Shown: positions 9,898 to 35,294 of the stretch, one piece after another
Layout: each line of letters begins with the position of its first letter
Numbering within the stretch: the stretch's first letter is position 1
Assembly: GCA_965153455.1 (NCBI GenBank)
Contig: OZ234493.1
Span: 25,968,213-26,032,212 of the forward strand
Reading direction: 5' to 3'
Length of the DNA: 64,000 nt
Source: Sphagnum compactum
Lineage: Eukaryota
Program-made: the position numbers and the translations under genes
The notes under the pieces: generated by a model
What the model was told of the DNA's origin: nothing
What the model saw: the letters and a program-made list of their open reading frames with translations, nothing else
Databases searched by the model: none

Positions 9898-11013
9898 TTA
9901 GCCATAACAACGAATGGGGTCGGTGCACATTTTAGCAGCCGACTGCCCTTTTCCTCGTCCACCACCCTTCTCAAGATACTGCTGGTGATATTCTTCAGCC
10001 ATGTAGAATGGGCCAGCTGGTAAAATTTCTGTTGCAATCTTCGTTCCAAGATGTGCCTCGTAATCTTTCATTGATGCAATTGCCTCCTCCTTCTGCTCCG
10101 GTGTATGGTAGTAAATTCCGGATCGGTATTGGGATCCAACATCATTTCCCTGTACATTGCAATTACGTCAGCACCTGTCAGAAACTTAGCCAAGCAATTC
10201 AGTTCATGAAACACATGTACAGGAAAAGCTGAAGGAGAAAAGCAGTTTTTGCAAGCAAATCGTTCAAAGACGGCAGGAACAAAATACATTTGCATTCATT
10301 GAATAGGATCTCAGACATTGAAAGACATGACTGCAGCTTTAGAAGACATGAAGGAAAACACAATGACTTACTTGGCGATTAACCTGAGTAGGATCGTGTT
10401 TCTTCCAGAAAACGTCGAGCAGTTGTTTGTAAGAGACCTCCGCGGGGTCATATTCAAGTTGTACAGCTTCTGCATGCCCTGTTTTGCCGGTGCACACTTC
10501 GCGGTATGTTGGATCCACAGTCTTGCCCATTGTATAACCGACTGCTGTCTGCACACACCGGAAGCACAATGTCACGATCAGAAACCCCGCTTATTTCTAG
10601 CTCGTAACACGCCATCACTGTAAAAACTTCTCGAGTACGATCACAAACATCGAGGATCTATTGAAACTAAAAAAACATCATTATGGAATGGTTGCCACGA
10701 GAGCATATGGATAGGACTTCTACATTTACGAACAGCAGAACGAGGATCTGTTGAGCTATTACTCAACGAGAAGCTTTGGAATCTTCACGACGAAGCTCAA
10801 AAGTTCGTCCCGAAAGCAAATAGAAACAAAGCAAAACAAGAAAAAAAAACTGCGGCAGCTTCAAACTCGAAAGCTGAACAGAATTTCCCTGAAAAAGTAG
10901 AGAAGAGACTGGGGGGGGGGGATCAAAACCTTGGTGACACCAGGAACACGCTGGTACGCCAATTCCACGCTCCAGAAACACCCGGCCGCAAATGTCGCCT
11001 TCTGCGTCGTCAT
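9898..11013 (-). CDS. MSRA: Peptide methionine sulfoxide reductase A, cytosolic type (170 aa, 3 exons)
   Basis: Exons 11013-10930, 10548-10372 and 10149-9898 are GT-AG, phase 0. Motifs are [50 protein letters not shown] and the plant-type C-terminus CTDPIRCYG*. No transit peptide is present. Confidence 0.97.
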
Positions 11014-15800: not shown

Positions 15801-18155
15801 TAAAGAAACCACAAGGTAAGCAAAAGTTGAACAACCATTTGTTTGGGCATTAAGAAAAGCATTACCTAACTTTTGAATTTTTATATTTGCATCTATATTA
15901 TTTGCAATGCATTTTTTTATGATAGAATGTAGTTTTGATGTTATTGATTTATCTATTTTTGTCGTATATGATGTGTAATATGTTGCAGTTGCATATGGGT
16001 CCAAAATAAGTTGAATATCTATATACAAACCATAAATGAGCAACACATATACTAAATGCATTAGTTTTTATGTTTTTAGGAGTTCATTTTAAGAAAATGT
16101 GTGACTTTGTTAATTTATTTCAAACCTAATATATATGTACTTTTGCCAAGGTTTGAAAAATTTAGGTATTCAAAAAATGATATACCATCATTTTTTTTAA
16201 TCTTTGAAATATTGAAATATTTTGTTTGATTGTGTTTGGGGGTATTATTGTGAAAATGGATAATTTCCATTTATTTGAAAAGGTTCTAAAATTTTTGTTT
16301 CACACATAGGAGGGAATGGGTAATGAAATCTACAAATAACATGGTTTTTTTTCTTACATGTACATGTGTGTTGTTAATGTTGTTGTGCATTTTGTAACAT
16401 GTTTGGTAACAATGATAGATCATAAAATATGTACATGTTTACAAACTATTCGATTTCTTCATTTGTGCGCACTCCATACATAGGTGCATGTTTTATCCAT
16501 AAAAGTCCATGGTCATGTTTGCTCCCACGATTTTGCAATTCAGTGACAAAAACAATAATCAGAAATACATCCAAAAAGAGAATGATATTTGTGATAAGTT
16601 TATGGAAACAAAATGTTTTATGATTGTAATATCTTACACATGTGACAGGGTCAATTCATATTAATTTTGTTATATGAATAGATTGGAGGTCTTTTATTTT
16701 ATTTGGAAGATTTCATTTTGAAACATGTAATGTGTGTAAATTTTTAATGAAAGGATCCCATAATCTTTCAGCAAATATAAAAGTGATAAAGAACGTTGGA
16801 GGACCAAGTTGTCAAATCATTGCAAATAATTTTTTTGCAACCTTTCAAAAGAATCAGGTGAATTACATAAACCTTTCAAATCATAATAACTTAAATATGA
16901 TATGAAGATATTATTTAAATTTGGTTATCTTGTACTTGATAGGTTTTTAAAGTTTTACCACACAGTTTTCCTTTTCGTATTCACACCCAACCAAAACTTA
17001 TAACTTTTTGGATGGAAACTTTAGCAACTTAAAAAAAAGTTGGAGATATTTGTTGAAAAATCCCTAAATTTATGAAATAATTCCCATTGAACTGTTTGTT
17101 GATATGAAAAACCTTCAATATTTTATCGAATTACCTCTAGAACAATGTTGAAAATTTTAGTTCTTCTTAATGTTTATTTTTAAATAAACCTAAAGGGTGA
17201 AATTTTTGACTTGGAACAATAGAATATATAGTATTTTCATAATCCATAATTTTTGGAGCATGTAAAAATTATGTATCATTGATTCTATTGGTGTACAATG
17301 TATTTCTTCATTGTCAAAATCAAAGTTATCATATGATGCATTACTATAAATAAGAATTTGAGATTCTGATTTCATATGCAAAGCAAACAAACTTGTCAAT
17401 TGATGATGAATGGTAACATTCAAATCTTTGTATAATGGTGTTTCAATTCAATTTTGTAAAGCAATCATCACCATATTTGGACAAACATTTCCTGGCATAT
17501 AAGGTGATCTGTACACAAAACGTCATTTAAAAAACACCTATTATTGCACCATCATGTGGTAAACATGGTAATATTGATTGAATTTGATCCACATTTTCAA
17601 GGATATTAATAACAATACCATGCATCTTGTATTGCCCATAACATTACCCTTGAAGTTTATAAATTTGAGCAAAAGCAAAATGTGATGAAATAAGACATTC
17701 TTATAATTGTGTTAACTTTTAGACTAATAGAATAATTTTGTTTTAGAAATTTTAATTAGTTTTAATACAAGGGTGGTTTATTTTCACTAATATTACATAA
17801 ACAATTTATACATCTGTATGATGTTGAACTAGGTTCTATTTGAATTCGAAAGTATATAGAAAATTATTTTGACAATTGATTTGAAAACATATAAGTTGCT
17901 TTAAAAAACATAACCTTTCACAACTAAAACATGGAATTATGGGAACATCTTCGATTTTTTTATTATAAATGTCAATGTATATTGAAGTATGTGTATTTTT
18001 TTATATATTAACATTATGTTCTATTTTATTTGATTGAACATCATGTTTTGCAAGAAATTGTTGGTGGGAATTGGTTTTTTTAATTTCTTCAAGAGTGCAT
18101 TGAACATATGACAATTGAACTTTGTCATTTATGAAATATTCTTGTGATTTTTTTG

Positions 18156-18187
<32 letters not shown>

Positions 18188-19460
18188 TTTCATGTGATTT
18201 ATAATTTGTGATCTTTTTTTTTTAATATTTGGAAACATGTTAATGAATTTAAATATTTTTGTGTAATAAGTTAGATTTGGACAAACCTCCAATAATTCAA
18301 AAATATTGTTGTCATAAAGTGCCCAATCAAAAAAAATCTTTTTCTTTCTTGTGTTACATTAGGTTCACCAATTTAATGGGAGTCTTCCATTTGAATTTTG
18401 GGATTTTTAAAAACTTTGATAAGGGGAACTAAAGTGAAAGGATTAGACAAAATTTCATTAACATGAACATTTGTATTTTTTTCAAATTTTTTTGTAAATA
18501 TTGAATATGATTTATAATTTATTCTTTGATAATATTTGTATTACAAGAAATGTTGAACAATGTAACAACATACTCCAATGGTGAATCCCAATTATTTTTC
18601 AAAATGTCCATTAATGTAAAATCAATTTTTTCATTCCAATAAAAACATGTAATTAGTTGCGATAATTGAATAAAAGGTGATTGCATCCACTACAACAAAA
18701 GGTGTCCTTGTACGCCAAGTGATTTCACTAGATTTTTGAGTGAATTCATTGGTTGTAGTGAATGGGGACCAGTGAAGAAGTAGTGAATTCACTAGTCTAG
18801 TGAATAGGGACTAGTGAACTGTACCCACATTTTGTAGTAGTGATCATTGATTTCAAAAAAGATGAAAAGTCATCTAAATCTATGGTAACTTTGGAATCAT
18901 TAATTTGAAAAGTAGGCAAAGACCTAGATAGACCATTAACATATTGAATTGATTCAAAATGTTGAAAACTGTACACTATATGTAATGGGATAAATTGGAA
19001 ATCCATGCCGTATCAAAACATAATGCATTTTGATATTTTATTCCAATTGTAAGTTGGCCTTTGTAAATATTGGGTTATCCAAAATATTATAGTAAAAATC
19101 TCCCCATACACCTCTCATATTAAAACGTAATGCTACTCTCGTCACATATTGATGTTCATTTATGACCATGCTTTGATGCAAATCAGACAAAAAATTTGGA
19201 TTTAATTCTTGAATATGACATTGTTGGATTTTTTTGGTATTCAATAATAAAAATTGATTTAAATGTGGCATGTCATTTTGCCTTAATACAAAAGGTGATA
19301 AATGATTATCCAATAAATAAAATATAAAATCAAAAAAACAATCGCCTATTTCACATTTGTATGTTGAAATTAAATGAAGGCCATAGGAATGCAATACATG
19401 TTCAAATGATGAATCAACAAAATTTAATAAAAGTGTTTCCATTATTATGAACTTCAATTT
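12890..19460 (-). mobile_element. Degenerate Helentron/Helitron2-type RepHel: OTU-like - Rep (HUH) - Pif1 helicase - EEP endonuclease; pseudogenised
   Basis: Minus-strand fragments occur in order. OTU-like: GDCFFD...WGD (~19450-19100). Rep: LGPPTFFITF (~16800), TELQNRGSKHDHGLLW (~16520) and LDPYATATYYTSYTTK (~15980). Helicase: Walker A LTGGVGIGKT (~14980), FFGGVNVIMIGDFYQTPP (~14620) and IQLAIVRTIH (~13890). EEP: IIIMLDFNVDIL (~13220) and LDHIW...WSNFHKPIY (~13090-13005). There are many stops and frameshifts, and the termini are not resolved. Confidence 0.85.
18688..18842. mobile_element. CACTA MITE (155 bp) nested in the Helentron ORF
   Basis: Termini are CACTACAACAAAA...TTTTGTAGTAGTG, with a perfect 3-bp TSD ATC at 18685-18687 and 18843-18845. 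Confidence 0.92.
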
Positions 19461-19569
19461 AATGGATACCTATATAAACAAAAACATGGTTCCCACATAA
19501 ACACATTCAAAAAAGATAAAATAAATGACTCATCCAAAATTATTTACTTTTTAAAAAAAAACCCTTGCA

Positions 19570-20040
19570 TTGAAATACTCTTTATATAGGAAAATTGCTT
19601 AGATGGAAAATTGTTTGAATTGAAAATTTGTTAACATTGAAAAATAATAAATCAGAAAAATATTTGTATTAAAAATTTGCATGTATTGAAAAAAAAAAGT
19701 CATTGAAAAACTATTTGCATTAAAAAACTATTTGCACAGAGAAATTGCTTAAATTGAAAAATCATTTTCACTAAAAAACTACTTACATTTAAAAAACTAC
19801 TTGCATTGGAAAAAATGCTTTCATTGAAAAAATTATTTGCATTGAAAAATTGCTTTCATTGGAAAAAAATATTCACATTTAAAAAAGAATCATTGAAAAG
19901 ATTCTTTCCATTAAAAACTACATACATTCAAAAATTGTTTAAATTGAAATTTTGTTTACATTTTAAATATTGCTTTCATTGAAAAAACTACTTCCATTGA
20001 AAAATTATTTCATAAACAAAATGTTGCATTTTTTTAAAAA
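19570..20040. repeat. Degenerate AT-rich tandem array (~20-bp units like GAAAAACTATTTGCATT)
   Basis: CATTGAAAAA / TTGCATT motifs recur at roughly 20-bp spacing. Confidence 0.6.
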
Positions 20041-21226
20041 AATCGGCAATTGATGGAAATTAATGTATGTGACCTTTCCTTTTTCTTTTAAAAAAAACTA
20101 TGAAAATGATTCTATATTATGGGCTATATAAACCAAAATTTTGATATAAGGAGTTTCCGCATATTTAAAGGGTAACTATAGAAAGGCCACATAAAAACTA
20201 TCAGCAAACTTAATGTCTAAAAGGGTTTTTGTTTAGAAATTGATTTTGATTCATCAAAATGAAGCTTGTGTTTCACACTACATTGGACATTATCACCAGG
20301 AATAATTATCGAAGGGGTAACCAAACCTTCGCCCTTCAAACTGGTTTCTGCTAGTGGGATAAATTGTTTGATATATTTTTTAAAGCCAACAAGGGCAGAT
20401 GTGGTTGACAAATGAAATTTAACATGAATTGCGAATTGAAATGAAGAGTTGAACTTGTTTTGGACTACGTAAATCTAAGAATTCAGATTTTGTCATATGC
20501 ACAATTACTTCAAGTCATTTGCTTTCAATAGTCAATAACACATATTCATCATTGCTTGCAATGGAACCATGAAGAAAGCTTAATTTTTGAATCATTGATT
20601 TTGAATGAAAAACATTACAAATAAACATCACCCATTAGAGAAATGGTGACGTCTACTACATGACGATTTCCACATACTTTTTGAAATGGAGGTGCAACAA
20701 GGCTAACTATGGCAACATTCCAATCACCTAGAAAAAAAAGAAAATATGCTCAAACAAAAAGGTAAATGAAGATGAACATAAACATACAAAAAATGTGAAA
20801 AAAGGTAGATCAATCAAGAAAGAAATGAAACCATGCACACACATACACATAATATGTAAACAAAAAGAATGAAATGCATAAGAAGTGCATGATAAAAGAT
20901 GTTATGGAAATGTAATAATTTAAAAAATTAATATTTAAAGAAAAAACAAAGATCTTGCTGATTTAAAATCAATTCCAATGATTTTTGTGACATTAGATGC
21001 ACTAAAAAGGGGACCATAAAATATTTTCAATGTTCAAAGGCTCTTGACCAATGTGAAAAAATTTATAAAACTTTATTTACAAAGGTTTTTCACATACTTA
21101 TTTACTTACCATATTAAAATTACAATATGTTCTTCTTTGAAAACACATTCCAAACATTTTATCCCATATTTTGTACCCAAAAAGGAATTCCATTGGATTA
21201 TATAAAGACATTTTTTTCACTTTTAA

Positions 21227-23727
21227 CACTACTAGGAAATGCGTCCTAGTTCACTATGGGTTTCACTAGATTTTTGAGTGAATTTGGACGATTTCACTAA
21301 GTGAAATTGTTTAACCCCCTAGTGAACGGGGACCAGTTGCTACGGACAATGACTTGTTTTACTAGTAATTAGTGAAATAAGGTTATTCTCAAGTGAAATA
21401 CAAATTTACCAAACCATTCACTTGCTAGTTAATTAACTAACCAGTATGGAAATTAATTAAATTTTAATTATTTAATATATAATGCTATTGATAATTTCAT
21501 GATTTTTAAAGCCCATTATTTATTGACACGTGTCACTACTTACGTTAGGTTAAAAACCTAGCCTAGGTAGGTAGGTAGGTAGGTCACGTAATCAACCTAG
21601 GCACCTAACCTAGGAATTCGATAGGAGAATATTTGGTCAACATACCATGTTGACCACACACAGCACCACCCATGAGGTTTGATCCCTTGACCTTTGGAAT
21701 GGGGGCAAACACCTTTACCATCAAACCACCCCACTTCTTGTGATAATATGTTACATTACATTCTATTTATCAAATACTTCATTTTGAACATTACAAAAAT
21801 ATAAACTTTGAAAATTGTCAATCCTAAACAATTATAATATATGGCTATTGGTTGTTTTTTTATTAGTGCTATTAGTGGTTATTAATGGCTATTGGTACCT
21901 ATTCTATTTGTGGTTATTAATGTTTTTTAGTGGTTATTCTATTAATAGTTATTGGTGGTTATTCTGTTAATGGCCATCAGTAGTTATTCTATTGGTGGCT
22001 ATTCTATTAATGGCTACTGTGGCTATTCTATTAATAGTTATTCGTGATTAATGTATTTATGGCTATTGGTGGTTATTCTATTAATGGCTATTGGTGGCTA
22101 TTTTATTAATGGTTATTCGTGATTAATTTATTGATGGATATTGGTGCCTACTCTATTAATGGTTATTGGTGGCTAATATATTATGGCTATTTATGATTAA
22201 TCTATTAATGGCTATTGGTGGTTAATCTATTAATGGCTATTGGTGGCTAATCTATTAATGGCTATTGGTGACTAATCTATTAATGGCTATTGGTGGCTAT
22301 TCTATTAATGGCTACTAGTGGCTATTCTATTAATGGCTACTGGTGGTTATTCTATTAATGGCTACTGGTGGCTATTCTATTAACGGGTACTGGTGGTTAT
22401 TCTATTAATAATTATTCGTGATTAATGTATTAATGGCTATTGTGGTTATTTTATTAATGGCTATTCGTGATTAATCTATTACTGGGTATTGGTGGCTATT
22501 TTATTAATGGTTATTCATGATTAATCTATTAATGGATATTGGTGGCTATTCTATTAATGGCTATTGGTGGCTAATCTATTAATGGTTATTGGTGGCTATT
22601 CTATTAATGGCTATTGGTGGCTAATCTATTAATGGCTATTGGCGGCTTTCTATTAATGACTTTTGGTGGCTATTATATTAATGGCTATTGGTGGCTATTC
22701 TATTAATGGCTATTGGTGGCTATTCTATTAATGGCTATTGGTGGCTATTCTATTAATGGCTATTGGTGGCTATTCTATTAATGGCTATTGGTGGCTATTC
22801 TATTAATGGCTATTGGTGGCTATTCTATTAATGGCTATTGGTGGCTATTCTATTAATGGTTATTGGTGGCTATTCTATTAATGGCTATTCGTGATTAATC
22901 TATTAATGGCTATTGGTGGCTATTTTATTAATGGCTATTGGTGGTTATTGACGGCTATTTTATTATGGTTATTAATGGTTATTGTATTATAAGTTATTAT
23001 TGGTTATTATATGTTATATTACAACTATTGGTGATTATTGTATTATAAATTATTGTTTGATATTCTATGTTATAATATCATAGGCTATTGGTAGTTATTA
23101 TATTGTAGGGTATTTAAAATTATTTTTCATAAGTTATTATTTTCTATTTTAAGTTATTTTTACCTTAGGCCATTATATTATTTTTAGATTATTTTAAAGT
23201 TATTATGCTTCGGATAAAATCATTTATAATAACATTAAGTAGAATGACCTTGAATAATTTAAAGTATAACTTGAAATAACATACATTAATTTAAAATAAA
23301 TAACCTAAGGTATAGCCTAAAGTTAGTTGAATAATTTAATTTTAAATAATTTAAAAGCTTGTAATAAATTAGTTAATATACTTTAAGGTACAATAACATA
23401 TAATAATTTAGGGTACAATAATTTATAATAGCCTATAATAACATAAAATATAAGTTAGAATAACTAAAGTAGTTTAAAATAATATAGGGTATATCATAAA
23501 GTAACATAGATAGAATATTAAAAAAAACATAGAAATAAACATATTTGCTATAGTAAATTGTAATAGTGAATTATGTTAACTATAAATGAAACATGATGTC
23601 TACATAGTGATATTATAATGAAATAATTTTCACTAGGTGAAATGAGTAAAATGCAATGAAGTTATTTCACTTTTAAGGTCCCATAGTGATTTAAGCTAGT
23701 AAACTACACCCCACTTTGGTAGTAGTG
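21227..23727. mobile_element. Non-autonomous CACTA element (2.5 kb) carrying a minisatellite
   Basis: Termini are CACTACTAGGAAA...TTTGGTAGTAGTG with TSD TAA at 21224-21226 and 23728-23730. Subterminal motifs TTTCACTAGATTTTTGAGTGAATT and AGTGAACGGGGAC are shared with the 155-bp MITEs. Confidence 0.88.
21840..22985. repeat. 25-bp tandem repeat array (ATGGCTATTGGTGGCTATTCTATTA)
   Basis: Units are near-perfect at 22681-22890 and progressively degenerate toward both edges. The array has about 45 units by length. Confidence 0.95.
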
Positions 23728-24039
23728 TAATAACAACAATGTATATTATGTCTAATATGCAATGGAACATGGATTTTTATTCTTTAGATAATTCTAATTT
23801 TAAAAAGTCATCTCAATGTAATTTTTTTTTAATAGGCCATTCTAAGAAAAAAATCATGTGGCCGTTTAATTCTCCGTTCTTTAAAAAGGAAACAATCAAA
23901 TGGTTCTTTTTGTTTTTTTTTTTTTTAACATTAAATTTGGGTCTCCTTTTTTTTTTTTTTTAAATCTCCTTAGGAAGAGGAAAATTAGGTTGGCCACCCA
24001 AATCTCCATATTAACTAGGTGATATATATATTATATGTC

Positions 24040-25067: not shown

Positions 25068-27153
25068 CACATTGGCCTCCCTTATACGCCTCAAGAAATT
25101 GTTCATATTATGTTCTAATATTGTTGCCAAAAACAAAAACATCTTGGTCAAATTCACCTTTTCCATTTGTAATCAACAATTGTTTTTCACCTTTGCTATC
25201 CCCTACTCCCCTTACACTAATGACAATGACAATAATGGTAGCAAACCTCCAACTCTGAATAAAACGTCTGAACTTTCTAATGGAATCCATGTGGCAAAAC
25301 ATGGGAATTAACTTAGGTTGGAATACAAAAATTGATGACACAATGGTTATCGACTCAATTGTGATGACACCATGCATGTCTCCTTTCTCAAAATCCTTTT
25401 CAAACTTTCATTCAATGCCAAAATTTTCCACCTTCACAAACATGCTTCTGCAAATGTTATTCATGCATTTTATATAAGGCAATTTCACCCTCAAAGTGAT
25501 TATGGTCAGAGCTACCCTATCCAACAAATCACAATGTAAATATGCATAGCCTAGATCTTCAATGTTCTTATTTACAATTTGATCAAAGGTGCCATACCTA
25601 TTGAGCACATTTGCCTCAAATGCCACATCTTTAATTCCAAACTCCAAATCATTCACTACAACAATTAATCTAGCTTCCTTCACTAGCACAACAGCCATTA
25701 TGTATATAAAAAAAAACTTACCAAAATGAATTTGACAACAAACAAATGAAGTAGCACTTGGAAAAACTAAAAGTTGCAAAAGCACACATTTGGTAAAACA
25801 TACACTCGCAGAAACACAAACTTGCAAAGCAAGCAAAAAAAACAATTAACAAAATGGTGAAAGTTTAAACCAAACACATTATTCTTGTTATGAAATAAAA
25901 AATACAACAAACATACAATGTTATATTTATATGGGACAAAAGACCTAACTTAAACCCTAAACCTAATTCTAAACCTAACCTTAAACCTTTTATTACTTTA
26001 AATCGACTTTAAGTAATTTTGACTATGGTCGATTTCAACTTAACAATAAATGATCATATCCATGGTTTGGCACCTAAATTACGGTATAATTTGTGAACAA
26101 AACATTAATACCCTTGGCATCTTATAAATTTTAGTTATTGATTTGCAACAACTTTGATTATGGTAGATGTCTACCATTTACCATAAATATTGATGAACCA
26201 TGGTTTGGCAGTTAGATTGTGGTTTAATAATGAACAAGACATCAATACCCTTGGCACCTTATGAATTTGAATTATGCACCTCATGCTTACACTCAACCCT
26301 TAAATATCTCAACCTAGATTTGAAAGATATTAATACATAAACCTTCAATTTTTCTCCACTATTTAACCATTACCCCATCCTCCCCTCCTCACCCAAAAAA
26401 AATCATAACCCCTCATCCCCTTTTCTTAAAGCTCCAATTACAACTTGTAATTCTTTCAATTTAATTGAATTATCCATTCTTTATACCCATTGAAACCCCA
26501 TAATGAAAAACAAACCCATGAGAGAAGGAAAAAAATTAAATGCCTTAACCCCTTTGTTCTCCCTAAATTTTCACCTATAAACCCCACTATACCCCCACCC
26601 AACTTTATAAACTAGTTATGTTTGCCCCATGCATGTTTGTTAAAACCTAAAATCATAAATGCATATCCACTATCTTAGGGCAATAATAAATTTTTATAAT
26701 ATAAAAAACAACAACAATACAAAAAAGATAATCAATCAAAAATTAATCTCATCATGATTTTTATTATTAAATATTAGTCAAAGCCTTATTGAAGTTTTAA
26801 AAATAACATCAAATTAATCAAAAACATTTATATCTCAAAAATGAATTTTATATTTTTTTAAAAATTGACTTATTTTATCTTAATCATTTCTTGCATATTT
26901 TTTCAAATCCCATTTTAATAAGATTTAAAGGAATTGAAGCTAATTATTTGTATGTTTATCAAACAAATTTTGTTTGAAAAATTAATCATGTGAATTGTTT
27001 TTTACATTTCATAATGATATGGAACTTCATGATACAGAAAGGCAAGCGATAACCCAACAAAATAAAATGATATACAAACATGATTAAATCAGTTACCCAA
27101 CATTCATATTTTGAGAAGAAACCCAACAAGTAAATGGGTAGACTTCAAAACAA

Positions 27154-27349
27154 CCCATCAATTGGATTGGTGCACCCAAAATTTACACATGCCCATCAAT
27201 TAGATTGGTGCACCCAAAATTTACGCATGCCCATCAATTGGATTGGTGCACCCAAAATTTACACATGCCCATCAATTCGATTGGTGCACCCAAAATTTAC
27301 ACATGCCCATCAATTGGATTGGTGCACCCAAAATTTACACATGCCCATC
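27154..27349. repeat. 38-bp tandem repeat, 5 copies plus partial
   Basis: The unit is CCCATCAATTGGATTGGTGCACCCAAAATTTACACATG, with only 3 substitutions across the copies. Confidence 0.95.
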
Positions 27350-30300
27350 CATTAGCTTGGGCCAATAAAAAACTTACGCGCAAACCTATAACCTTATCCA
27401 TTCAACCAACTTTTGATTCTTCAACCCCTATACCCGATCAGAAGGTGTTCCCACAATGCCTCTGTAAAACATAACCAATAAAAAGAAAATTGTTTACATA
27501 ATGGCAGGTTCATGTACTCGTGTGTTTTCTTAAGGTTTAGGACACCCTTGGGCTCATGCCCTCCCCTCAAGAGTTACACTCATATGGGAACCTCCCCTTC
27601 AACTAAAGCTTAAAAACATATAAGGTGCAAAGGTCTAAGTTGCCTTTACACTGTACTAGCTTGTCATGAACAAGTGGGTCGTTCCTACAATAAAATGCCC
27701 CCTTGAGGTGGAACCAAGGGTTGCTAACATTCAAGAATGCCCCATTCCAAGGGCATTATTCAAGCATTGGTAAAAAAATGTACTTTTTGTTTCTCCCATG
27801 TCACTTGGTGTGTGTCACCCAAAATTTTTTTTTAAAGCTTTTCAAAACACCTCACCTTTTGCTAAGTAGAAATTTGATCTAAATAGACTATAACTTTTTT
27901 GTGGGTGGTTTATATACATAAAAGATCATAATAAATATCGGGTAGGTTTTTTAATTCCCTTCAAATGCAAAATCAACAATTATGTGGATATTTCAATCAT
28001 TTCGTACCTACATCATTAGCCATCATATTAGTGGTTCATTAAAAGGCAAAATGCACCTTAAGAAGGTATTCTCTAGCACATAACCCCCTCCATGCATTGA
28101 ATCGTATGGTAGGGGCTTGTAGCCTAGGAAGGGTCATGATCTATGATAATTAATTTTCAATTAAATCCCTACTAACACATAGCTAATATGTTACATTACT
28201 AAATTTTCAAACAACACCTAGGCACACCATACAAAACACTTGAACAAAATAAGAGATGAAACTTACTTATTTTTTAACTAATATCACCCACACACCTAAA
28301 GTTTGGTCTTTATGTGAGCTACATCCAATGCTAATCACATGCACCTAATTCAAAGCTTTACAAGGTTCACCATTTCCAACTTCAAAGCAAGCTAAGTCTA
28401 ATTTGTTTAAATGCCAATGCAAGCAATTTCAATAGGGGAGTTTTTCAAAGTTGTCATTCTCTTCAAGAAAAACATCCGTTTAATCTCATTCCCCCCTCCA
28501 AGTTATTAAAATTGAAAGAGTGAGTAGGTTTTAATCTTCATGGTGAATTTTTAAATGGATGGGAAGAAAGGGGGGAAAATTTTTAAGTCATAAGGATTAG
28601 AAAGTGAGCAAAAAATCACAATCACAAGGAAAGGGTTTTCATGGTAATACTCATGAAGGGAAGACACTCTTCTTTGAATTAAAAAATACATGAATAGAAA
28701 TATAGGGCCCCATATATTGGTTTTTTTAGTAAAAATTATAATTGGATTAGTTCTATAATAGAATTATGTTTACTCTAAAAATTAAAATATAATTAATATA
28801 AGGCATCTGATAATCCACAATATTAAAAAAAAGTAGAAGAAACATAAGATATATATTAAACATTTTAGGTATTAATTGTTAATAGGTTCAATTAATAAAT
28901 TTAAAAACTTTAATTCATGAGCTTTTATATATTTTGTTAAATATTACATCATGTGTTTATTATCAATTGAAGCCTTTTTGAATTGCTAATTATTCCTTTG
29001 GAAAACAAATTTGTTCAACTTTATCTTATAATGACAACTATACTTTGATTCATGTGCCTGTCTTTTGTTTCCACCTTTCATTCAAAATTTAGATATGGTA
29101 TATCGTTTAGCTTATTGAATAATTGATTATCAAGTTCTTTTTTTTTTTTGAATTATTTCACAAGGTCTATGAAACAACGGTATTGGGTCACAAAGAATCA
29201 TCAACAACATCATAATGTGCAAAGTTAATATCACCATAATAAATTTGTAAGGCCCATCATATACAATGGGTTTATAGTATTCAATTTATATTTTACCATG
29301 ATCATGTGAAGTGTTAAAGATGTTATATTACAAGAATTTTTGTTAGGTTAAATTGTTTTATTTCTATTGTTCCATTTGTGTAACTAACTGAAGATTGAAC
29401 TTGCATTGGTTAAAATTAATATGTCAAAGTACCAATTATATTAGCAATTACTATTGTCTAATCCTAAAATCTCATAAGTCTAAGTTGTAATGGAAACTAC
29501 ATTGACCACAAAATTTGTGGGCCTTGCCAATAGCAGAATAGATTGTTAAAAAACATTTAGGCAACTATTATTGCATGTCCTAGCTCATCATGTAAACAAA
29601 TGATCCACTTTTAAAATAACAATCTCGAATTCTTTTGCAACTCTAAACTCGCTAAAATTGAAATTTTAAATGAATATACCATACATGTATTGAAATTGGA
29701 TGAAAATAAAAAATTATAGCTAAATATAAAGCAATTGAAATATGTGTATATTAAAAATTAAGTAATAACATTAGGGTGGGGAAACAAAAATTCCTTCACT
29801 TAATACCCCCCCCCCCCAACTTTGTTTAACATATGCATTTTAACATTTAATGTCCCCTTGGGAAAACTCATAGGGAGTGGGAAGCAACCAAAAAAAATCA
29901 CAAAGAAATAATGAGAAGGGAGGGAAAAAAAAAGATCACTGAGAGGGAAGTGGGGAAGGATGGCAAAGTGAGAACAAAAACTAAACTACAACAATGGGAG
30001 CTTGGGGCTAGGTCCTTAAACTTTAGCCCCAAATCCCTATACTAAAGCCTATACCCTATACCTACACCTTTAAGATCCAACCCCAAACAAAAATACCTTA
30101 AAACGTATCAAATCAAATCTTCTTTTGCATCCAATTACCCTTTGAAAAACCTAGGTCATGTGAAGGGCAAAATCTTCTCATATCTAGACCCATCAAAGTT
30201 GGTCTTGTGGTGGCTCTTCTTCCATTAAAACCCACTAGGCCAAGTCCTTGAATTTGAACCTTGGTTAAAAACTTGAACCTAGGTTAAAAGGTTGCCCCTA

Positions 30301-30589: not shown

Positions 30590-31230
30590 TCTACTCGAGT
30601 CTCTGATGGTATATCTCAAAACCAATTGCAGAACTAAGAGTGGTGCAAGGTTGGTCCACCAGTTGCGCAGCCGATGCGCATAGGAACCACATTATGCCAT
30701 ATTGTGCTGCATCGAGTAGGAACGGCTCTCCAAGGTAATGCTTGACCAACATGTAGTGCTCTTAGATTTTCTCCCTTTGGTCAAGCTGAGAAGGGGTGTT
30801 CTCAATTACATAACCAAGCGTAGGAGAACTGGATTGAGCCCAGGTGATCAATCGTACCATGTCCGTGAAGAGACCGGATCTTGTGCCACTCAAGCCTTCT
30901 CTGAATCCAGCTGCTGAAAATCCTTGACACTCTCAACTTGAAATGATGATGTCCACGGGGCCAAATAATTCCATATGCTTCTTCTAAATTAGTTGTATGT
31001 CAGAGGGCAAGAAAGTGAAACTGGCCTTCCATGTGGTGGTTGCAAACTCTTATGGAAATCTGGTTGTGAGCTCCATCATTCTCGATGCCGCCACTTGTTT
31101 TGCAATAGGATCAATGTTTACATAGAATATCTCCAAACCACCATCCTTGACTATAGTAGGGTTTCGAGACCTGTACCAATACCACCAAAGAGTTTTAGTA
31201 ATGTAATCCCTTCCTTAGGTAGTGTCCAGG
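30590..31230 (-). pseudogene. DNMT3-like cytosine-5 methyltransferase domain (decayed, retroelement-encoded)
   Basis: Motifs are I ITLLKLFGGIGTGL, II YVNIDPIA, IV VDIIISS*ECQGFSAAG, then RSGLF, VI YVIENT and VIII LLDAAQ/CGSYAHRLRNWWTNL. There are five in-frame stops and two frameshifts. The domain is cut off before motifs IX-X. Confidence 0.88.
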
Positions 31231-33349
31231 TGATTAGCTGACAAAGTATTGGCTTAATCGGTTCGCCATGGCTCTCCATGTTCTCAAAACTAGATAGAGC
31301 TTTGACCAAAGGCTTGTGGGCTGCTTTGAACCTTTGTAAAACCTCTTGTCCATGTTGAATGTCCGTAGGAACCACCCTCAAGCTTTCAGTAGCTTGGGCG
31401 TAAGCTGTCTCCTCTTCATCTCCCTCTATCCACTCATGGCTAGCTTGTTGGATGTAAGAAATGGTGTGTGCTTCCTTGCATACAATGGTGAGCCATAGGA
31501 TTATGGTTCCCATGTAAATCAAGGGGTATGTATCCCAGGTGGTGGCCGTTAGTCTCCCAATCCACTCGATAATACGCATGCTCGAACTAGTTGTCAATTG
31601 TGAAACCTGGTGGAAACAAGGCCTCTTGCCCAGTGAACACATCGTAACTAGTGGCATTGGTGACTAAACATCTGACATGTAGGCAAAGCTCCTGATCTAT
31701 ACCTTCATTGAAGTTAAGTGCAATCAAATCCGAGCTCTTCCCAAGTACCTCCTCTACGCTCCCACTAGCGGTGCAAATTTGCCACATAAATTTTTGTAGT
31801 TGGAATCAAGCATGCCCATCTTCTTGGCGAATTGAATTCCAAAAATCACTGGGTGGCACCTGTATCAAAAAGTACCACTCTGGATGTATGTCTTCCCATC
31901 TAGATTATCGACTTAGTATTATCGACAATGGCAACTTCAGTGGCGATGGAAGTTCTCTCACTAGGCATCACCTTCGGAAATGAGTGCAAGACTTTGTGGA
32001 AAGAATGGCTATCCACAATGCCTTTGTTGAATAACAAATCCACACGTGAGGTGTTCTTAGCTCCCTTCTGATATGTGAATGTAGAATCAGAAGTAGGAGA
32101 GCCCACTAGTTTAACCATGCTAGAACTAGTGACTAGATTACGAACGGCATCTACAACACGTGAGCCAATCGAATGTCTCTCCAAGGTCTTGGATGGGACC
32201 CCTGTAGCATGTGGATCAGGGATTGGTAGAGGACCTCATGTAGTGTTCAAGGTATATTTTAGTACTGCAATTATGTCCCTGGTGCTTAGCTTCAAATCTT
32301 GAAAACTAAACAACAGTGTATTCACAAGGTTTTGCGCCACTTCACACATTTGAAATTGGCACTCCATAAGTTGATCCGTGGAAAATTGTGTGTTTTCCTG
32401 ATGTACATGTACTCCTGAGACACAAAAAATTAATGCCCTAGCAGCTTGTGGTGTAGTAAGATGTACCGTTGATGTAGTGTAACCTGAACCTGAATTCCTG
32501 GTAGGAGTTGTGCTGGATGACGGTGGCATTGTAGACGTTTGATGGTACTGTCGAGAAGATCGTGAGCTCAAAGAAATCGGCTCAAATGATTATGTGTTAC
32601 TTCGTAGCTCATACCTTGGCTTTGGCTGAACGGTAGTGCTCTCATCATCCGAGGACATGGTGTTGTCCCATGCCCCAAAATTTTGTAACAATAGAGCACT
32701 AACTACAAAATTTTAACACAACCATGCAATTAAATGCAATTGTAATGGAAACTGAAATGTGAAGTGCTTAAGAAAACATACCGTAAGCAGCTGTAAGTTT
32801 CTATAATCACTAATGCTAAATGACGAAATAGAGGAAGAAAGAAATGTATATTTATGTATTAATAAGATTACGTAAGTGTATGTATTAATACAAAAATAAC
32901 GTAAATATATGTATTAATACTACATACGTAGATGTATGTATTAATACAAGAATATGTATATGTACGTTTTTATTTTTATTTTTTATAAAAAAATTAATTA
33001 AAAAAATAAATTTAAATTTAAATTTTTGAAATTTTTTGAAATTTTTTGAAATGTTGATGGACGGAATAGAACCATACGGACGAAATCATGACGGATGGAC
33101 GTCGACGGACATCAGACGGATGGACGTCAGATGGACAGATGTCGAACGGACGTTGGAGGCCACAACATTACAAAGTGCCCATGAGCTCCACAGCAATGGT
33201 GGACGACAACATGATGTCAGAGGCCACGGCACTGCAAATTGCCCATGAGCTCTGTAGCAATGGCGGGCGGTAACGCTACGCTGCAGATTGCTCGAGAGCT
33301 CTACAATGATGGCGTGCAGAAGCAAAAAAATAAATAAATAATTTACCTA

Positions 33350-33660
33350 ACATTGCATTTGGCTCTGGCAACCTTCGAGCATCTTTAAGGCTTCCTCCGC
33401 CTCCTCCTGTGTCTCTGTGCAAGAAAGAGAAAGAGATATCTTCTCCTCTTGTGCTACAACATGCACTCATGCGCGCACACTCAGGTGAAGATTTTCGGTG
33501 ATGGTATCCATGAGCTTACTACAGTTATGACGGACAGGTTACAAGAGGAGCTTGGCGTCACAGCCGCTTCCTTTGCCCCTGCTAGAGCCATGGCAGGAGG
33601 AGGAGCAACCGGGGTTGCTACTAGAGCTGCTCCTGTTGTGGAAGAGAAGACGGCGTTTAC
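33350..33660 (+). pseudogene. RPL12: Captured fragment of a plastid-type 50S ribosomal protein L12 (L7/L12) gene
   Basis: VKIFGDGIHELTTVMTDRLQEELGVTAASFAPARAMAGGGATGVATRAAPVVEEKTAF matches the L7/L12 N-domain, Ala/Gly hinge and EEKTEF motif. A transit-peptide-like stretch, NIAFGSGNLRASLRLPPPPPVS, lies upstream. Confidence 0.75.
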
Positions 33661-35294
33661 GCTACTACTATTTCTCATTTTTTTTCTACGCTTATACTGC
33701 AACCACAACAAGAACACATGAAAGGAGAAGTAACAACAATAACAACAATAACACCAGCAAAAAAAACCCAAGAAACTCAAAACAAAACCAAGAAAAATCT
33801 GCCATTTTTAACATTAAGTGACATAGAGTAGTTTTTTTAGAATTAAATTGCAAAGAAGGAAAGAAAACGTAATGTATGTAAACGGTGGCCGTGTAATAGT
33901 CGTCGTGAGTATCTAGAAATCCGATCTGATTATGAAAAAAATTCTCCCTGACAAAGAATTCTAGAAAAACTAATTAATAAGAGAAGGGAAGAGCTTGGTC
34001 GTTTATATAGCTACCAACAAGCTGAAACCCTAAACAAGCCATAACCCTAAAACACTTAATAATGTATAATAACCTAAAAACACACATTAACCCTAAGAGT
34101 GTACATTAACCCTAAAAGGCATGATTGGCATGCCCGTAACCAGCTGTCATGTATAAGGCCATGCATACGGGCATGACACATTCAAGAAAATAATTAAACT
34201 AAAAAATCCAAATAGTATTGTTACTTAAGTTGCAACAAGCTTGTGATTGTAAGCTTCATTTCATTTTAGCTTGTCCATTTGCTTATTTATCCCTATACAA
34301 GCAAACATCTAAGCTTGAGGCACAAAGACGCCTACATAGAAGCTAGTGGTTGGGACCCCCTTAATTAAGCACACCATAACATACTAACCACAACAAAATA
34401 GGGGATTTGCAAAATGAAAGTTTTTCTTGCCACATGACTTTTCCTACACACACAAGCTTGAAAAATTGTGGATCTTCACAAGTAGGCAACATGCACTTGT
34501 GGAACAACAATACTGTGACTTTGAAGATGACTACAACACAACAGACAATGTCAGTTGGAAGTAACTCATAATAAGGAGGTTCACAAGCCATCAAACAAGT
34601 TGTCACCAATGTTCCAACTATTTGCTATATATGTGAAAAAGTTTGTTTACTCATTGGCAATTCATGCCATGAATAGAAACAATATATTTCTAACTATGTC
34701 ATACAAATTTGCTCTTGATGTGAAGCATCAAAATTTTTGCTCTAAACCAAGGGCACCTTAGTGCTAATACCAAAAAAATAAAAATGCATAATGTACAACA
34801 AAAGAATGTGAAGTTTTGGATCGTAGAACTTGGAAAAATCAAAATCCGTCACAAAATTTTCATAAAGTTTTTGAACTTTTCATGTTGTGAATTGAGAATA
34901 ATTTCTTGTACCAGTAGACAAAATTTGTATTTTTGGAATTTGGAACAAGTGACATTACACTAATTTGTACATATATTAAACAACTAGTTATAAATTGGGT
35001 GTTTTGGGGATCTTCCTAGTTGCTAAGGTAATAGGTCCCATAGTTCATGTAGATCCTCCTGAAGCTTCAGCTTCGCTTGGAGTAGCCTTACACACATTGA
35101 TTACGATGAGTAATTCAAATTTATTGGGTTGGTTACTAACAATGAAAAAAAATTGTATTACAAACTTCAATGAAATGTGGGTAAATGGTTTTGCAGACCA
35201 ATATGGAGAGAGCAGATGGTTGAGAAGAATAGTAAAAAGTGGGCTTAATTGTTAGCAATGTACCAAGAAGTAATGGATCCAAAATTTTATAGGT

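What the first reader, a model, noticed from the sequence alone, without database searches (positions are those of the whole stretch)
30590..32658. Retrotransposon-encoded DNMT3-like cytosine methyltransferase directly after the protease
Seen: gag-like ORF, then retropepsin (LFDTGA), then a C5-MTase with motifs I (LFGGIG), IV ([W]ECQGFS), VI (ENT) and VIII (AHRLRNWWTNL). It is intronless, on one strand, and downstream of an LTR-like segment. The motif VIII form is DNMT3-like, and motif IV has E-C-Q rather than canonical P-C-Q. Known: DNMT-carrying retrotransposons have been reported in dinoflagellates and charophyte algae; I know of no well-characterised land-plant example. Inference: a bryophyte retroelement lineage that encoded its own methyltransferase as a polyprotein domain, possibly to methylate its cDNA or modulate host silencing. 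This copy is dead and truncated.
Basis: partly seen in the sequence, partly recalled or inferred. Interest (0 to 1): 0.88.

Follow-up and report, generated by a model that had tools for sequence, protein, structure and literature searches.

The report
Moss retrotransposon carrying a DNMT3 methyltransferase
This is a dead, truncated copy of a peat-moss jumping gene whose family encodes its own DNA cytosine methyltransferase inside the polyprotein, which extends a kind of element so far described in a charophyte alga to land plants.

Summary
On the minus strand, window 32458-30595 reads gag tail, retropepsin (LFDTGA), a 220-aa spacer, then a C5-methyltransferase with motifs I, IV (ECQ), VI and VIII. 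It carries 9 stops and 5 frameshifts.

The copy really starts at 34178 with a terminal repeat. It has lost most of gag through a 1.7-kb deletion and stops after motif VIII.

The PR-DNMT junction is a family trait:
- 572 of 600 scanned metagenome stretches encode a relative.
- Among the best 80 loci, PR lies upstream in 68 of 73 and RT downstream in 54 of 56.

The full element is gag-PR-DNMT-RT-RNaseH-integrase-PHD finger, about 9-11 kb. It ends in TG...CA, has 4-bp target duplications and an A...B-A-B repeat layout.

Named relatives are Sphagnum species, the liverwort Calypogeia, Closterium and Klebsormidium. By sequence and predicted fold, the domain's nearest solved structures are DNMT3A/B/C.

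Verdict: a land-plant member of the KnitGypsy-Dnmt3 kind described in 2018. What the methyltransferase does is inferred, not shown.

The parts
33830..34178 (-). 5' terminal 'A' repeat of the element (LTR-like). The element terminus TGTCATG is at 34178 and a TATATAAA box lies near 34005.
   Evidence: blastn to both the A1 and A2 repeats of L002, L019, L066 and L078; sequence read.
32460..33829 (-). 5' leader remnant. 32722-32460 matches the leader of L002 (6710-6972), upstream of its gag start. 32723-33829 matches only some copies and includes AT-rich simple repeats.
   Evidence: gag start of L002 mapped at 7083 by tblastn with P0017.
32458..32459 (-). Junction of an internal deletion of about 1.7 kb (L002 6973-8682). 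It removes the gag N-terminus, capsid part and CCHC knuckles.
   Evidence: Collinear blastn HSPs jump from L002 6972 to 8683 with no window bases between them. P0017 residues 1-552 find no match in the window.
31906..32458 (-). C-terminal gag tail / pre-protease region of the polyprotein.
   Evidence: tblastn of P0017 residues 553-737; translation.
31590..31905 (-). Retropepsin (aspartic protease) with the active-site motif LFDTGA at 31872-31855. It is broken by two 1-bp deletions and stops.
   Evidence: The homologous part of L002 hits Pfam gag-asp_proteas (E 0.0014, below the cut-off). PF13975 is precomputed on P0026 and P0265.
31193..31589 (-). Conserved spacer of about 220 aa in relatives, between protease and methyltransferase, with no known family.
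   Evidence: Conserved in Sphagnum and Calypogeia proteins. No Pfam family above cut-off.
30595..31192 (-). DNMT3-like C5 cytosine methyltransferase domain: motif I (31192-31175), IV E-C-Q (30932-30915), VI ENT (30806-30789) and VIII (30679-30647). Motifs IX-X, RT, RNase H, integrase and PHD are missing because the copy is truncated at 30595.
   Evidence: PF00145; motif coordinates; homology to all relatives ends at 30595-30599; no RT of this family elsewhere in the window.

Best explanation
SHOWN. Window 34178-30595 (minus strand) is a decayed fragment, deleted at the 5' side and truncated at the 3' side, of a Ty3/Gypsy-type retrotransposon family of peat mosses (Sphagnum-like host). The family's single Gag-Pol polyprotein carries a DNMT3-type C5 cytosine methyltransferase domain between the protease and the reverse transcriptase, and a PHD finger at the C-terminus of the DDE integrase. 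Full elements are about 9-11 kb. They end in TGTC...GACA, are flanked by 4-bp target-site duplications, and have the split repeat layout A-internal-B-A-B. The same layout is reported for KnitGypsy-Dnmt3 of Klebsormidium nitens. The family belongs to a wide radiation of DNMT-carrying Gypsy polyproteins. Named relatives are Calypogeia (liverwort), Closterium and Klebsormidium (streptophyte algae).

INFERRED. While the family was active the DNMT domain was a working enzyme. It was as constrained as RT and keeps the catalytic Cys, the ENx Glu, the RxR motif and the SAM motif I. Glu in place of the usual Pro before the Cys is a tolerated, ancient variant.

MOST LIKELY MECHANISM (about 0.35, not shown). 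The domain is made as part of Pol and travels with the nucleoprotein or pre-integration complex. It methylates the element's own new cDNA or the fresh insertion. Meanwhile the integrase PHD finger, which is closest to readers of the unmodified H3 tail, steers insertion away from H3K4-methylated active promoters. The new copy would thus enter the genome already marked as host-like and silent, which lowers its cost to the host. The copy in this window does nothing today.
For: Motifs and Pfam.

Family linkage:
- In the best 80 loci, PR is upstream in 68 of 73 evaluable, RT downstream in 54 of 56, RNase H in 48 of 50, integrase in 37 of 42, PHD in 32 of 36. 21 of 80 loci hold all seven segments.
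- L002 has one frame, 8165-14179, with only 4 stops. Pfam finds gag-asp_proteas (below cut-off), DNA_methylase, RVT_1, RT_RNaseH_2, Integrase_H2C2, rve and PHD.
- Uninterrupted ORFs: P0037 gag(CCHC)-PR-DNMT-RT start, 1315 aa; P0003 DNMT-RT-RH, 820 aa.

Repeats and ends:
- A/B repeats in L002, L019 and L066.
- Termini TGTC...GACA, with exact 4-bp duplications in 5 of 7 evaluable loci (L002, L015, L020, L048=L051, L060) and 3 of 4 bases matching in the other two.

Taxa: Sphagnum balticum, S. compactum, S. magellanicum, Calypogeia fissa (PR-DNMT, 65% identity), Klebsormidium nitens KFL_017580010 (E 1.7e-83 to the profile), Closterium NIES-53/54.

Tree (63 rows): window + Sphagnum + Calypogeia form one clade (SH-aLRT 100). 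K. nitens sits in a clade (100) with PR-DNMT proteins. All 26 sampled RT-RH-DNMT-IN proteins are one side of a branch (99).

DNMT3 type:
- phmmer against PDB: 21 of 21 hits are DNMT3A/B/C.
- Profile against PDB: DNMT3A 1.8e-18 > DNMT3B/3C ~1e-15 > tobacco DRM 1.3e-14 > M.HhaI 4e-10.
- AlphaFold2 model pLDDT 92.2, pTM 0.90. All listed Foldseek PDB matches (ranks 1-50) are DNMT3; best E 3.3e-18, target-normalised TM 0.85.

Constraint (Nei-Gojobori omega): DNMT 0.36 (44 copies, 942 pairs), RT 0.41 (8 copies), PR 0.51.

PHD: the best PDB matches are WSTF, KMT2D, KDM5, ATXR5, BAZ2A/B, CHD4, DPF, AIRE, UHRF1 and PHF21A. That these read unmodified H3K4/R2 is recalled knowledge.
Against: - No enzymatic, methylome or expression evidence was obtained, so the cDNA-methylation and PHD-targeting steps are inference only.
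- Motif IV has Glu where C5 methyltransferases normally have Pro (canonical form recalled). Its effect on catalysis is unknown.
- Pairwise omega among mostly dead copies is inflated by neutral decay. It is about equally low in the linker (0.43) and the pre-DNMT spacer (0.35), so it shows constraint on the whole polyprotein, not on the DNMT in particular.
- Only 1 of 44 DNMT segments in the loci is free of stops, and only 7 of 80 loci have any plus-strand ORF of 400 aa or more. The sampled Sphagnum copies are nearly all dead.
- Host bryophyte DNMT3 and DRM sequences could not be put in the tree, so derivation from, or donation to, host DNMT3 is open.
The nearest named proteins are Sphagnum, and the run names were coded.
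- In the 63-row tree the Sphagnum clade is not sister to K. nitens. With midpoint rooting it groups (support 92, unstarred) next to the RT-RH-DNMT-IN side, so one origin of the PR-DNMT arrangement is not established.
Confidence: 0.88

Rival explanations
1. Chance juxtaposition: a processed pseudogene of a host DNMT3 landed next to a retroelement protease at this one locus.
For: The window copy is fragmentary and intronless, and no RT of the same element follows it in the window.
Against: The same junction, with the same 220-aa spacer, recurs in 68 of 73 evaluable loci. It also occurs in proteins of three Sphagnum species and of Calypogeia. Uninterrupted ORFs span gag-PR-DNMT-RT. The domain's closest relatives are all polyprotein-embedded.
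Confidence: 0.01
2. The domain is a catalytically dead relic. The Pro-to-Glu change before the catalytic Cys abolished methyl transfer, and the fold is kept for DNA or SAM binding or as a structural spacer in Pol.
For: E-C-Q replaces the canonical P-C-Q in every Sphagnum and Calypogeia sequence seen (15 of 15). No activity data exist. Omega is no lower in the DNMT than in the neighbouring linker.
Against: The catalytic Cys, the ENx Glu, motif VIII R-x-R, motif I and the C-terminal GxxMD-like motif are kept. Among 147 non-redundant domains, 66 have E and 55 have P, intermixed across clades that include long intact polyproteins, so E has persisted through much diversification. The model folds confidently as a DNMT3 catalytic domain.
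Confidence: 0.15
3. The DNMT is active but acts on the host genome and not on the element's own cDNA. It could perturb or saturate host silencing, or methylate flanking DNA. This is the 'modulate host silencing' reading.
For: de Mendoza et al. 2018 raise host-epigenome effects for dinoflagellate elements (passages read). Nothing here fixes the substrate.
Against: As a polyprotein domain it is made together with RT and IN, which favours action on the element's own DNA (inference). Copies themselves carry the signature of heavy methylation: C>T plus G>A make up 76% of 6590 differences, with per-site rates of 0.20 at CG and 0.23 at CHG against 0.014 for A/T transitions. That signature does not tell who methylated them.
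Confidence: 0.2
4. It is a DIRS/PAT-like (tyrosine-recombinase) element and not a Gypsy element, as the A...B-A-B repeat layout might suggest.
For: Split direct repeats A1...B1-A2-B2 occur in L002, L019 and L066. SymbioDIRS-Dnmt3 has this layout (legend read).
Against: Pfam finds Integrase_H2C2 plus rve (a DDE integrase) and no phage-type integrase. The termini are TG...CA with 4-bp target duplications in 5 of 7 loci. RT and RNase H match the Gypsy-type Pfam models RT_RNaseH and RT_RNaseH_2.
Confidence: 0.02

Closest known systems
KnitGypsy-Dnmt3 of Klebsormidium nitens (de Mendoza et al. 2018, Nat Commun 9:1341, PMC5890265; passages and figure legends read, figures and supplements not seen)
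   Same: Both have an intronless DNMT3-type domain inside the Pol polyprotein of a Gypsy-type element. Both have the DIRS-like A-coding-B-A-B repeat layout with Gypsy domain content. The host is a streptophyte. The K. nitens protein KFL_017580010 matches the profile at E 1.7e-83 and clusters with PR-DNMT proteins.
   Different: The host is a land plant (moss, with a liverwort sister family). Motif IV is E-C-Q here and P-C-Q in the K. nitens protein. The DNMT domains are about 32% identical. A PHD finger on the integrase and 4-bp target duplications are documented here; the word 'PHD' does not occur in the paper's main text. I could not see the domain order in the paper's Fig. 4c.
SymbioDIRS-Dnmt3 and SymbioLINE-Dnmt of dinoflagellates (same paper)
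   Same: A retrotransposon-encoded C5 methyltransferase. The DIRS type also carries a DNMT3-class domain in Pol and A...B-A-B repeats.
   Different: Those use a tyrosine recombinase or an endonuclease. This family has a DDE integrase, TG...CA ends and target duplications.
Host DNMT3 / DRM de novo methyltransferases
   Same: The catalytic fold and motif forms are closest to DNMT3A/B/C. Motif order is linear I to X, as in DNMT3 and unlike the rearranged DRM.
   Different: There is no PWWP or ADD N-terminal module on the same chain. The domain is embedded in a polyprotein and has Glu for Pro in motif IV. Identity to human DNMT3 is about 21%. A histone-reader PHD sits on the integrase instead.
Chromoviruses (Gypsy elements with a chromodomain at the integrase C-terminus; recalled knowledge)
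   Same: A chromatin-reader domain is fused to the C-terminus of a Gypsy DDE integrase.
   Different: Its binding preference was not tested.

Membership tests
C5 cytosine DNA methyltransferase (Pfam PF00145) | Profile match above the curated gathering score | tested here: met
   Window read-through P0002: 37.1 bits against a cut-off of 22, E 3.2e-9. Single ORF 30762-30932: 24.9 bits.
C5 cytosine DNA methyltransferase (Pfam PF00145) | Motifs I (FxGxG), IV (P-C), VI (ENV), VIII (RxR), IX and X, in order | tested here: inconclusive
   In the window, I, IV, VI and VIII are present in order, and IX-X are absent through truncation. In intact relatives all are present, but motif IV is E-C, not P-C. 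The canonical motif forms are recalled.
DNMT3 class | The closest solved relatives by sequence and by fold are DNMT3, and the catalytic domain is not rearranged | tested here: met
   PDB phmmer: 21 of 21 hits are DNMT3A/B/C. Profile ranking: DNMT3A > 3B/3C > DRM > HhaI. All listed Foldseek matches (ranks 1-50) are DNMT3, TMt up to 0.85. Motifs are linear.
DNMT3 class | Groups with host DNMT3 in a phylogeny that includes DNMT1, DNMT2, DRM, CMT and bacterial enzymes | not tested
   No host DNMT sequences could be fetched with the tools and caps available. The trees hold retroelement-type domains only.
Ty3/Gypsy LTR retrotransposon | Polyprotein order PR-RT-RNaseH-DDE integrase, with gag CCHC | tested here: met
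   Family level: L002 Pfam domains in that order, with DNMT inserted after PR; CCHC in P0017 and P0037. The window copy keeps only PR.
Ty3/Gypsy LTR retrotransposon | Two identical long terminal repeats | tested here: not met
   The repeats are split: A1 at the 5' end and B1-A2-B2 at the 3' end. This is not a canonical LTR pair, but it is the layout reported for KnitGypsy-Dnmt3.
Ty3/Gypsy LTR retrotransposon | TG...CA termini and short target-site duplication | tested here: met
   Termini TGTC...GACA. The 4-bp duplication is exact in 5 of 7 evaluable loci and matches at 3 of 4 bases in the other 2. It is not testable in the window copy because the 3' end is missing.
KnitGypsy-Dnmt3-type element | DNMT3 domain in the Pol ORF of a Gypsy element, with DIRS-like repeat layout | tested here: met
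   definition from passages of PMC5890265.
KnitGypsy-Dnmt3-type element | Shared descent with the K. nitens elements (one acquisition) | tested here: inconclusive
   The K. nitens DNMT and the Sphagnum DNMT both lie outside the 99-supported RT-RH-DNMT-IN side. They are not sisters, and deep branches are weakly supported and unrooted. No RT tree was made.
DIRS-like retrotransposon | Tyrosine recombinase in place of a DDE integrase | tested here: not met
   rve and Integrase_H2C2 were found, and no Phage_integrase.

The most novel reading that the evidence does not exclude
The window copy is the tip of a large, old and mostly undescribed clade of Gypsy-type retrotransposons. The clade would run from streptophyte algae to mosses and liverworts, plus many unnamed hosts in environmental data. 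It would carry a complete de novo methylation kit split over two Pol products: a DNMT3 catalytic domain and an H3K4me0-type PHD reader on the integrase. This mirrors the ADD-plus-methyltransferase logic of animal DNMT3. The clade exists in two stable domain orders (PR-DNMT-RT and RT-RH-DNMT-IN-PHD). These elements would choose unmarked chromatin and methylate themselves on arrival. They may have exchanged DNMT3 domains with their hosts during streptophyte evolution.
Probability: 0.3. Interest if true: 0.8.

Novelty: new member of a known kind. Interest (0 to 1): 0.6.

Why it matters
Retrotransposons that carry the enzyme normally used to silence them reverse the usual roles of host and parasite. 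So far they are documented in dinoflagellates and one charophyte alga. This finding adds four things:
- The same kind of element lives in land plants. It is in Sphagnum, a keystone genus of peatlands with published genomes, and in a liverwort.
- At least 2212 sequence clusters at 50% identity match the domain, 264 of them at E 1e-30 or better. Of the 336 fetched proteins with a DNMT match, 150 show a second polyprotein domain beside it.
- The integrase carries a PHD finger.
- The catalytic motif has a long-lived Pro-to-Glu variant.

This gives experimentally tractable material. Mosses are transformable, and the domains can be expressed. It allows two questions to be asked: what a transposon gains from its own DNMT3, and whether host and transposon DNMT3s have exchanged. 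The individual locus in the window is a dead fragment with no present function.

Tried and rejected
- The whole genome of the window is not held, so copy number and intact copies in the source genome could not be counted.
- The search of earlier findings returned nothing for this genome.
- My first translation was in the wrong frame and was redone.
- The first search of protein representatives failed because the profile exceeded 1,200 positions.
- The listing of cluster members gave no organism names for 20 metagenome-derived polyproteins, so the hosts of the RT-RH-DNMT-IN-PHD class remain unknown.
- The look-up of sequencing runs listed 20 holders, with only 0.31-0.36 of the words each. Organism names were coded, apart from one 'moss metagenome'. 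No RNA holder was listed, so nothing was laid and nothing can be said on expression.
- The ESM Atlas look-up only repeated 'DNA_methylase, Eukaryota/Streptophyta' for the best cluster. Two phage-dominated clusters had equal scores, which I treat as generic C5-methyltransferase likeness.
- Literature searches for a moss or bryophyte DNMT-retroelement found nothing beyond de Mendoza 2018: Sphagnum/retrotransposon/methyltransferase/Gypsy; DNMT3/retrotransposon/bryophyte/polyprotein; 'KnitGypsy-Dnmt3'; LTR retrotransposon/DNA methyltransferase domain/moss. A search on PHD finger/integrase/Gypsy gave nothing relevant.
- Weak Pfam hits were dismissed as noise: HHH_8 on the spacer (E 0.013, below cut-off) and RdRP_1 on the RT.
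- I considered and rejected a standard two-LTR reading of the repeats, with LTR = A+B or B+A. No B follows A1 and none precedes it.
Full report
WHAT IS IN THE WINDOW

The feature lies on the minus strand. A three-frame translation of 33000-30300 shows these parts in order:
- a retropepsin active site, VVLFDTGATQ;
- a conserved stretch, FTIDN-FEHAYYRVDWETNGHHLGYIPLDLHGNH...;
- LKLFGGIGTGLETLL (methyltransferase motif I);
- ECQGFSAAGF (motif IV);
- YVIENTPS (motif VI);
- GSYAHRLRNWWTNLAPL (motif VIII).

Pfam DNA_methylase (PF00145) passes its curated cut-off on the 56-aa motif-IV ORF alone. It also passes on a 149-aa read-through with X at four stops.

HOW BROKEN THE COPY IS, AND ITS TRUE EXTENT

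I aligned the copy to the reading frame of the best-preserved relative (L002). It has five frameshifting indels and nine stop codons, at 89.2% DNA identity.
- Homology to the family runs from 32458 to 30595 without interruption and stops dead at 30595-30599 in every comparison.
- That point is just after motif VIII. Motifs IX-X, RT, RNase H and integrase are absent.
- tblastn with an RT-bearing relative finds only an unrelated Gypsy RT at 46458-47647, at 27-37% identity.

Upstream, the window keeps two pieces of the element:
- 32722-32460 matches the family's 5' leader.
- 34178-33830 matches the family's terminal 'A' repeat, including the TGTCATG terminus and a TATATAAA box.

Between leader and polyprotein, 1.7 kb is missing (L002 6973-8682). 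This holds the gag start, mapped at L002 7083, and the CCHC knuckles. It is leader plus gag tail.

THE JUNCTION IS A FAMILY CHARACTER

A word-indexed protein search with the read-through gave 32 relatives at 68-87% identity.
- One is named Sphagnum balticum.
- One (P0003) joins DNMT, RT and RNase H.
- A cluster mate, P0037, is a single 1315-aa ORF. It runs gag with CCHC knuckles, protease, spacer, the full DNMT (motifs I-X) and the start of RT.

Of these, 572 were confirmed and the best 80 were kept. I took the L002 polyprotein, read through with X at its stops, as a yardstick. I counted a segment only where the contig reaches far enough.

| Segment | Present / evaluable loci |
|---|---|
| PR upstream of DNMT | 68 / 73 |
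| RT downstream of DNMT | 54 / 56 |
| RNase H | 48 / 50 |
| Integrase | 37 / 42 |
| C-terminal PHD finger | 32 / 36 |

All seven segments are present in 21 of 80 loci.

ANATOMY OF A FULL ELEMENT

L002 has one frame, 8165-14179, with four stops. Pfam finds gag-asp_proteas (weak, below cut-off), DNA_methylase, RVT_1, RT_RNaseH_2/RT_RNaseH, Integrase_H2C2, rve and a PHD finger at the very C-terminus.

The repeats are not a simple LTR pair:
- A1 is at 5559-5849.
- At the 3' end come B1 (14229-14404), A2 (14406-14697) and B2 (14698-14873).
- The same layout occurs in L019 and L066.

This is the 'A-coding-B-A-B' layout. de Mendoza et al. 2018 describe it for DIRS-type elements and state that KnitGypsy-Dnmt3 shares it (legends read).

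The elements nevertheless behave like integrase-driven LTR elements:
- They begin TGTCATG and end CACGACA.
- The four bases on either side are identical in L002 (GGTC), L015 (CCAA), L020 (CCAC), L048/L051 (AATT, one locus seen twice) and L060 (ATGG).
- They match at three of four positions in L019 and L066.
- In one search, three further loci (L005, L019, L054) returned the internal B1|A2 junction instead of the true end. They were not counted from that call.

WHAT KIND OF METHYLTRANSFERASE IT IS

- phmmer of an intact relative against PDB sequences returns only DNMT3A, 3B and 3C (21 of 21 hits). The alignments show the shared LFDGIATG / LFGGIGTG and AHRARYFWGNL / AHRLRNWWTNL forms.
- A profile of 14 diverse family members ranks DNMT3A (1.8e-18) above DNMT3B/3C, tobacco DRM (1.3e-14), M.HhaI (4e-10) and DNMT2 (1e-5).
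- An AlphaFold2 model of L002:9920-11020, built on a 42-row alignment, has mean pLDDT 92.2 and pTM 0.90.
- All listed Foldseek PDB matches (ranks 1-50) are DNMT3 catalytic domains. The best has E 3.3e-18, and target-normalised TM reaches 0.85, at about 21% identity.

So 'DNMT3-like' stands.

Motif IV is W-E-C-Q-G-F-S in all 15 aligned Sphagnum-type sequences and in Calypogeia and Closterium. The K. nitens protein has P-C-Q. I took 180 domains of at least 270 aa and reduced them at 75% identity to 147.
- 66 have E and 55 have P.
- 24 were not matched by my pattern.
- One each has C and S.

E and P forms are intermixed across the tree. The E variant is therefore old and widespread, not a lesion.

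WAS THE DOMAIN USED?

Nei-Gojobori pairwise omega among ungapped copies is shown below.

| Segment | Omega | Sample |
|---|---|---|
| DNMT | 0.36 | 44 copies, 942 pairs |
| RT | 0.41 | 8 copies, 21 pairs |
| Protease | 0.51 | 29 copies |
| Pre-DNMT spacer | 0.35 | 28 copies |
| Post-DNMT linker | 0.43 | 20 copies |

The DNMT was thus as constrained as the indispensable RT while the family diversified. The test does not single it out, and dead-copy decay inflates all the values.

The sampled copies are overwhelmingly dead:
- 1 of 44 DNMT segments is free of stops.
- Only 7 of 80 loci have any plus-strand ORF of 400 aa or more.

Their decay is dominated by C>T and G>A changes, which make up 5019 of 6590 differences from the column majority in 56 copies.
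- Per-site rates are about 0.20 at CG, 0.23 at CHG and 0.08 at CHH.
- The rate for A/T transitions is 0.014.
- The window copy shows 81 such changes out of 136.

That is the signature expected of heavily methylated plant repeats (inference). It explains why most of the window's stops replace codons that in L002 are CAA, CAG or TGG.

WIDER KINSHIP

A profile search of 1.84 billion cluster representatives found the following:
- 2212 proteins at E 1e-3 or better and 264 at E 1e-30 or better.
- Among the best 150 are many polyproteins of 1500-3400 aa.

Pfam on five of them shows two domain orders:
- CCHC-DNMT-RT-RH-IN, as in Sphagnum;
- RT-RH-DNMT-IN-PHD.

I located domains with phmmer in all 344 proteins fetched up to that point. 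Of these, 336 have a DNMT match.
- 103 show the RT-DNMT-IN type.
- 47 show the PR-DNMT or DNMT-RT type.
- 186 show DNMT alone. Many of these are fragments.

Named relatives are as follows:
- Closterium NIES-53/54 (DNMT-RT-RH-IN, with E-C-Q);
- Klebsormidium nitens KFL_017580010;
- Calypogeia fissa (PR-spacer-DNMT, 65% identical);
- Sphagnum compactum;
- S. magellanicum CY35_15G039600, a gene model stitched from a decayed element;
- one protein filed under a bacterial MAG. It sits among the PR-DNMT polyprotein sequences in the tree, so I take it for eukaryotic contamination.

Two trees of the DNMT domain were built.
- The FastTree run (148 rows) splits at SH-like support 98. One side has 34 rows holding every PR-DNMT or DNMT-before-RT protein plus the window. 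The other has 114 rows holding every DNMT-after-RT protein.
- The IQ-TREE quick run has 63 rows: all 34 from the first side, 26 drawn at random from the 71 RT-DNMT rows, and three named sequences. The other 88 rows of the second side were left out.
- In that tree the RT-DNMT rows form one side of a branch (99). Window + Sphagnum + Calypogeia form a clade (100). K. nitens lies in a clade (100) with PR-DNMT proteins.
- Deep relations among the PR-DNMT groups are weak and unrooted. I do not claim a single acquisition.

THE PHD FINGER

The 60-aa C-terminus of the L002 integrase matches the following PHD fingers, with E from 3e-15 to 1e-7:
- WSTF, KMT2D, KDM5 and ATXR5;
- BAZ2A/B, CHD4 and DPF2/3;
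- KAT6A, UHRF1, AIRE and PHF21A.

From memory, most of these read the unmodified H3 tail. None of the classical H3K4me3 readers appears among the 60 sequences listed. This is a lead to the binding preference, not a test of it.

MECHANISM

The following are shown:
- the element's structure;
- that the DNMT is part of Pol;
- that it is DNMT3-like and was under constraint;
- that the window copy is dead.

The following are inferred:
- The enzyme acts on the element's own new DNA. It is co-translated with RT and IN.
- The PHD-integrase biases insertion toward chromatin without H3K4 methylation.
- New copies therefore arrive pre-silenced and look host-like.

de Mendoza et al. propose cDNA methylation for the dinoflagellate elements on similar grounds (Discussion passage read). 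I put this at about 0.35. The rivals are an inactive relic (0.15) and action on the host genome (0.2).

COMPARISON WITH WHAT IS KNOWN, AND NOVELTY

The kind is known: KnitGypsy-Dnmt3 (2018). [quoted passage not shown] It calls them Copia and DIRS, where the 2018 paper says Gypsy.

My full-text searches found no description of such an element in a moss, liverwort or other land plant.

I therefore class this as a new member of a known kind. Four points seem undescribed in the text I could read:
- presence in bryophytes;
- the integrase PHD finger;
- the long-lived E-C-Q variant;
- the size and two-architecture structure of the radiation.

The locus itself is an inert fragment.

Noticed in passing
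L002:14027-14161 (family); absent from the window copy: The integrase of the DNMT-carrying elements ends in a PHD finger (Pfam PHD, E 2.9e-10). It is present in 32 of 36 evaluable loci and in both polyprotein architectures. Its closest solved relatives are WSTF, KDM5, BAZ2, CHD4, AIRE and UHRF1-type fingers.
   Followed up: partly
P0065, P0074, P0093, P0225 and others (metagenome proteins): There is a second, larger class of related polyproteins with the order RT-RNaseH-DNMT-integrase-PHD. Some are intact at about 2,500 aa, with up to 224 near-identical cluster members. Their hosts are unnamed. Their DNMT domains separate cleanly from the PR-DNMT-RT class in the tree.
   Followed up: partly
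L002:14229-14873, also L019 and L066: The internal B1|A2 junction reads like the element's two ends joined head to tail with 2 extra bases (..CACGACA-AC-T[G/A]TCATG). A G8 run sits directly upstream of B1. The way such an A...B-A-B element with a DDE integrase rebuilds its ends is unexplained.
   Followed up: partly
window 46458-47647 (-): A different Gypsy-type RT/RNase H remnant, 27-37% identical to the RT of the DNMT family. It is not part of the finding.
   Followed up: no
window 27134-27474 (+): ORF translations show a repeated unit (…IGAPKIYTCPSI.LVHPKFTHAHQLDWCTQNL.MPIN…), which suggests a tandem DNA repeat of roughly 100 bp.
   Followed up: no
window 12000-24000: A long AT-rich stretch (GC 0.25-0.30, against 0.39-0.44 in the flanks). 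GC skew is strongly positive at 22-24 kb and negative at 24-28 kb and 44-54 kb.
   Followed up: no
window 32740-33000 (-): An AT-rich simple repeat (…atacatacatctacgtatgtagtattaatac…) lies inside the element's leader. It matches only some family copies (for example L050).
   Followed up: no
P0320 (Sphagnum magellanicum CY35_15G039600) and P0258 (filed under a Candidatus Obscuribacterales MAG): Two public annotations look like by-products of this family. One is a moss gene model that splices PR, DNMT, integrase and PHD fragments of a decayed element. The other is a 'bacterial' DNA cytosine methyltransferase that sits among the PR-DNMT polyprotein sequences in the tree, so it is probably eukaryotic contamination of the bin.
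   Followed up: partly
L001-L080, DNMT-PR region (56 copies): The family's copies differ from the column majority mainly by C>T and G>A changes (76%). Per-site rates at CG and CHG are about 15 times those of A/T transitions, as expected for heavily methylated repeats.
   Followed up: yes
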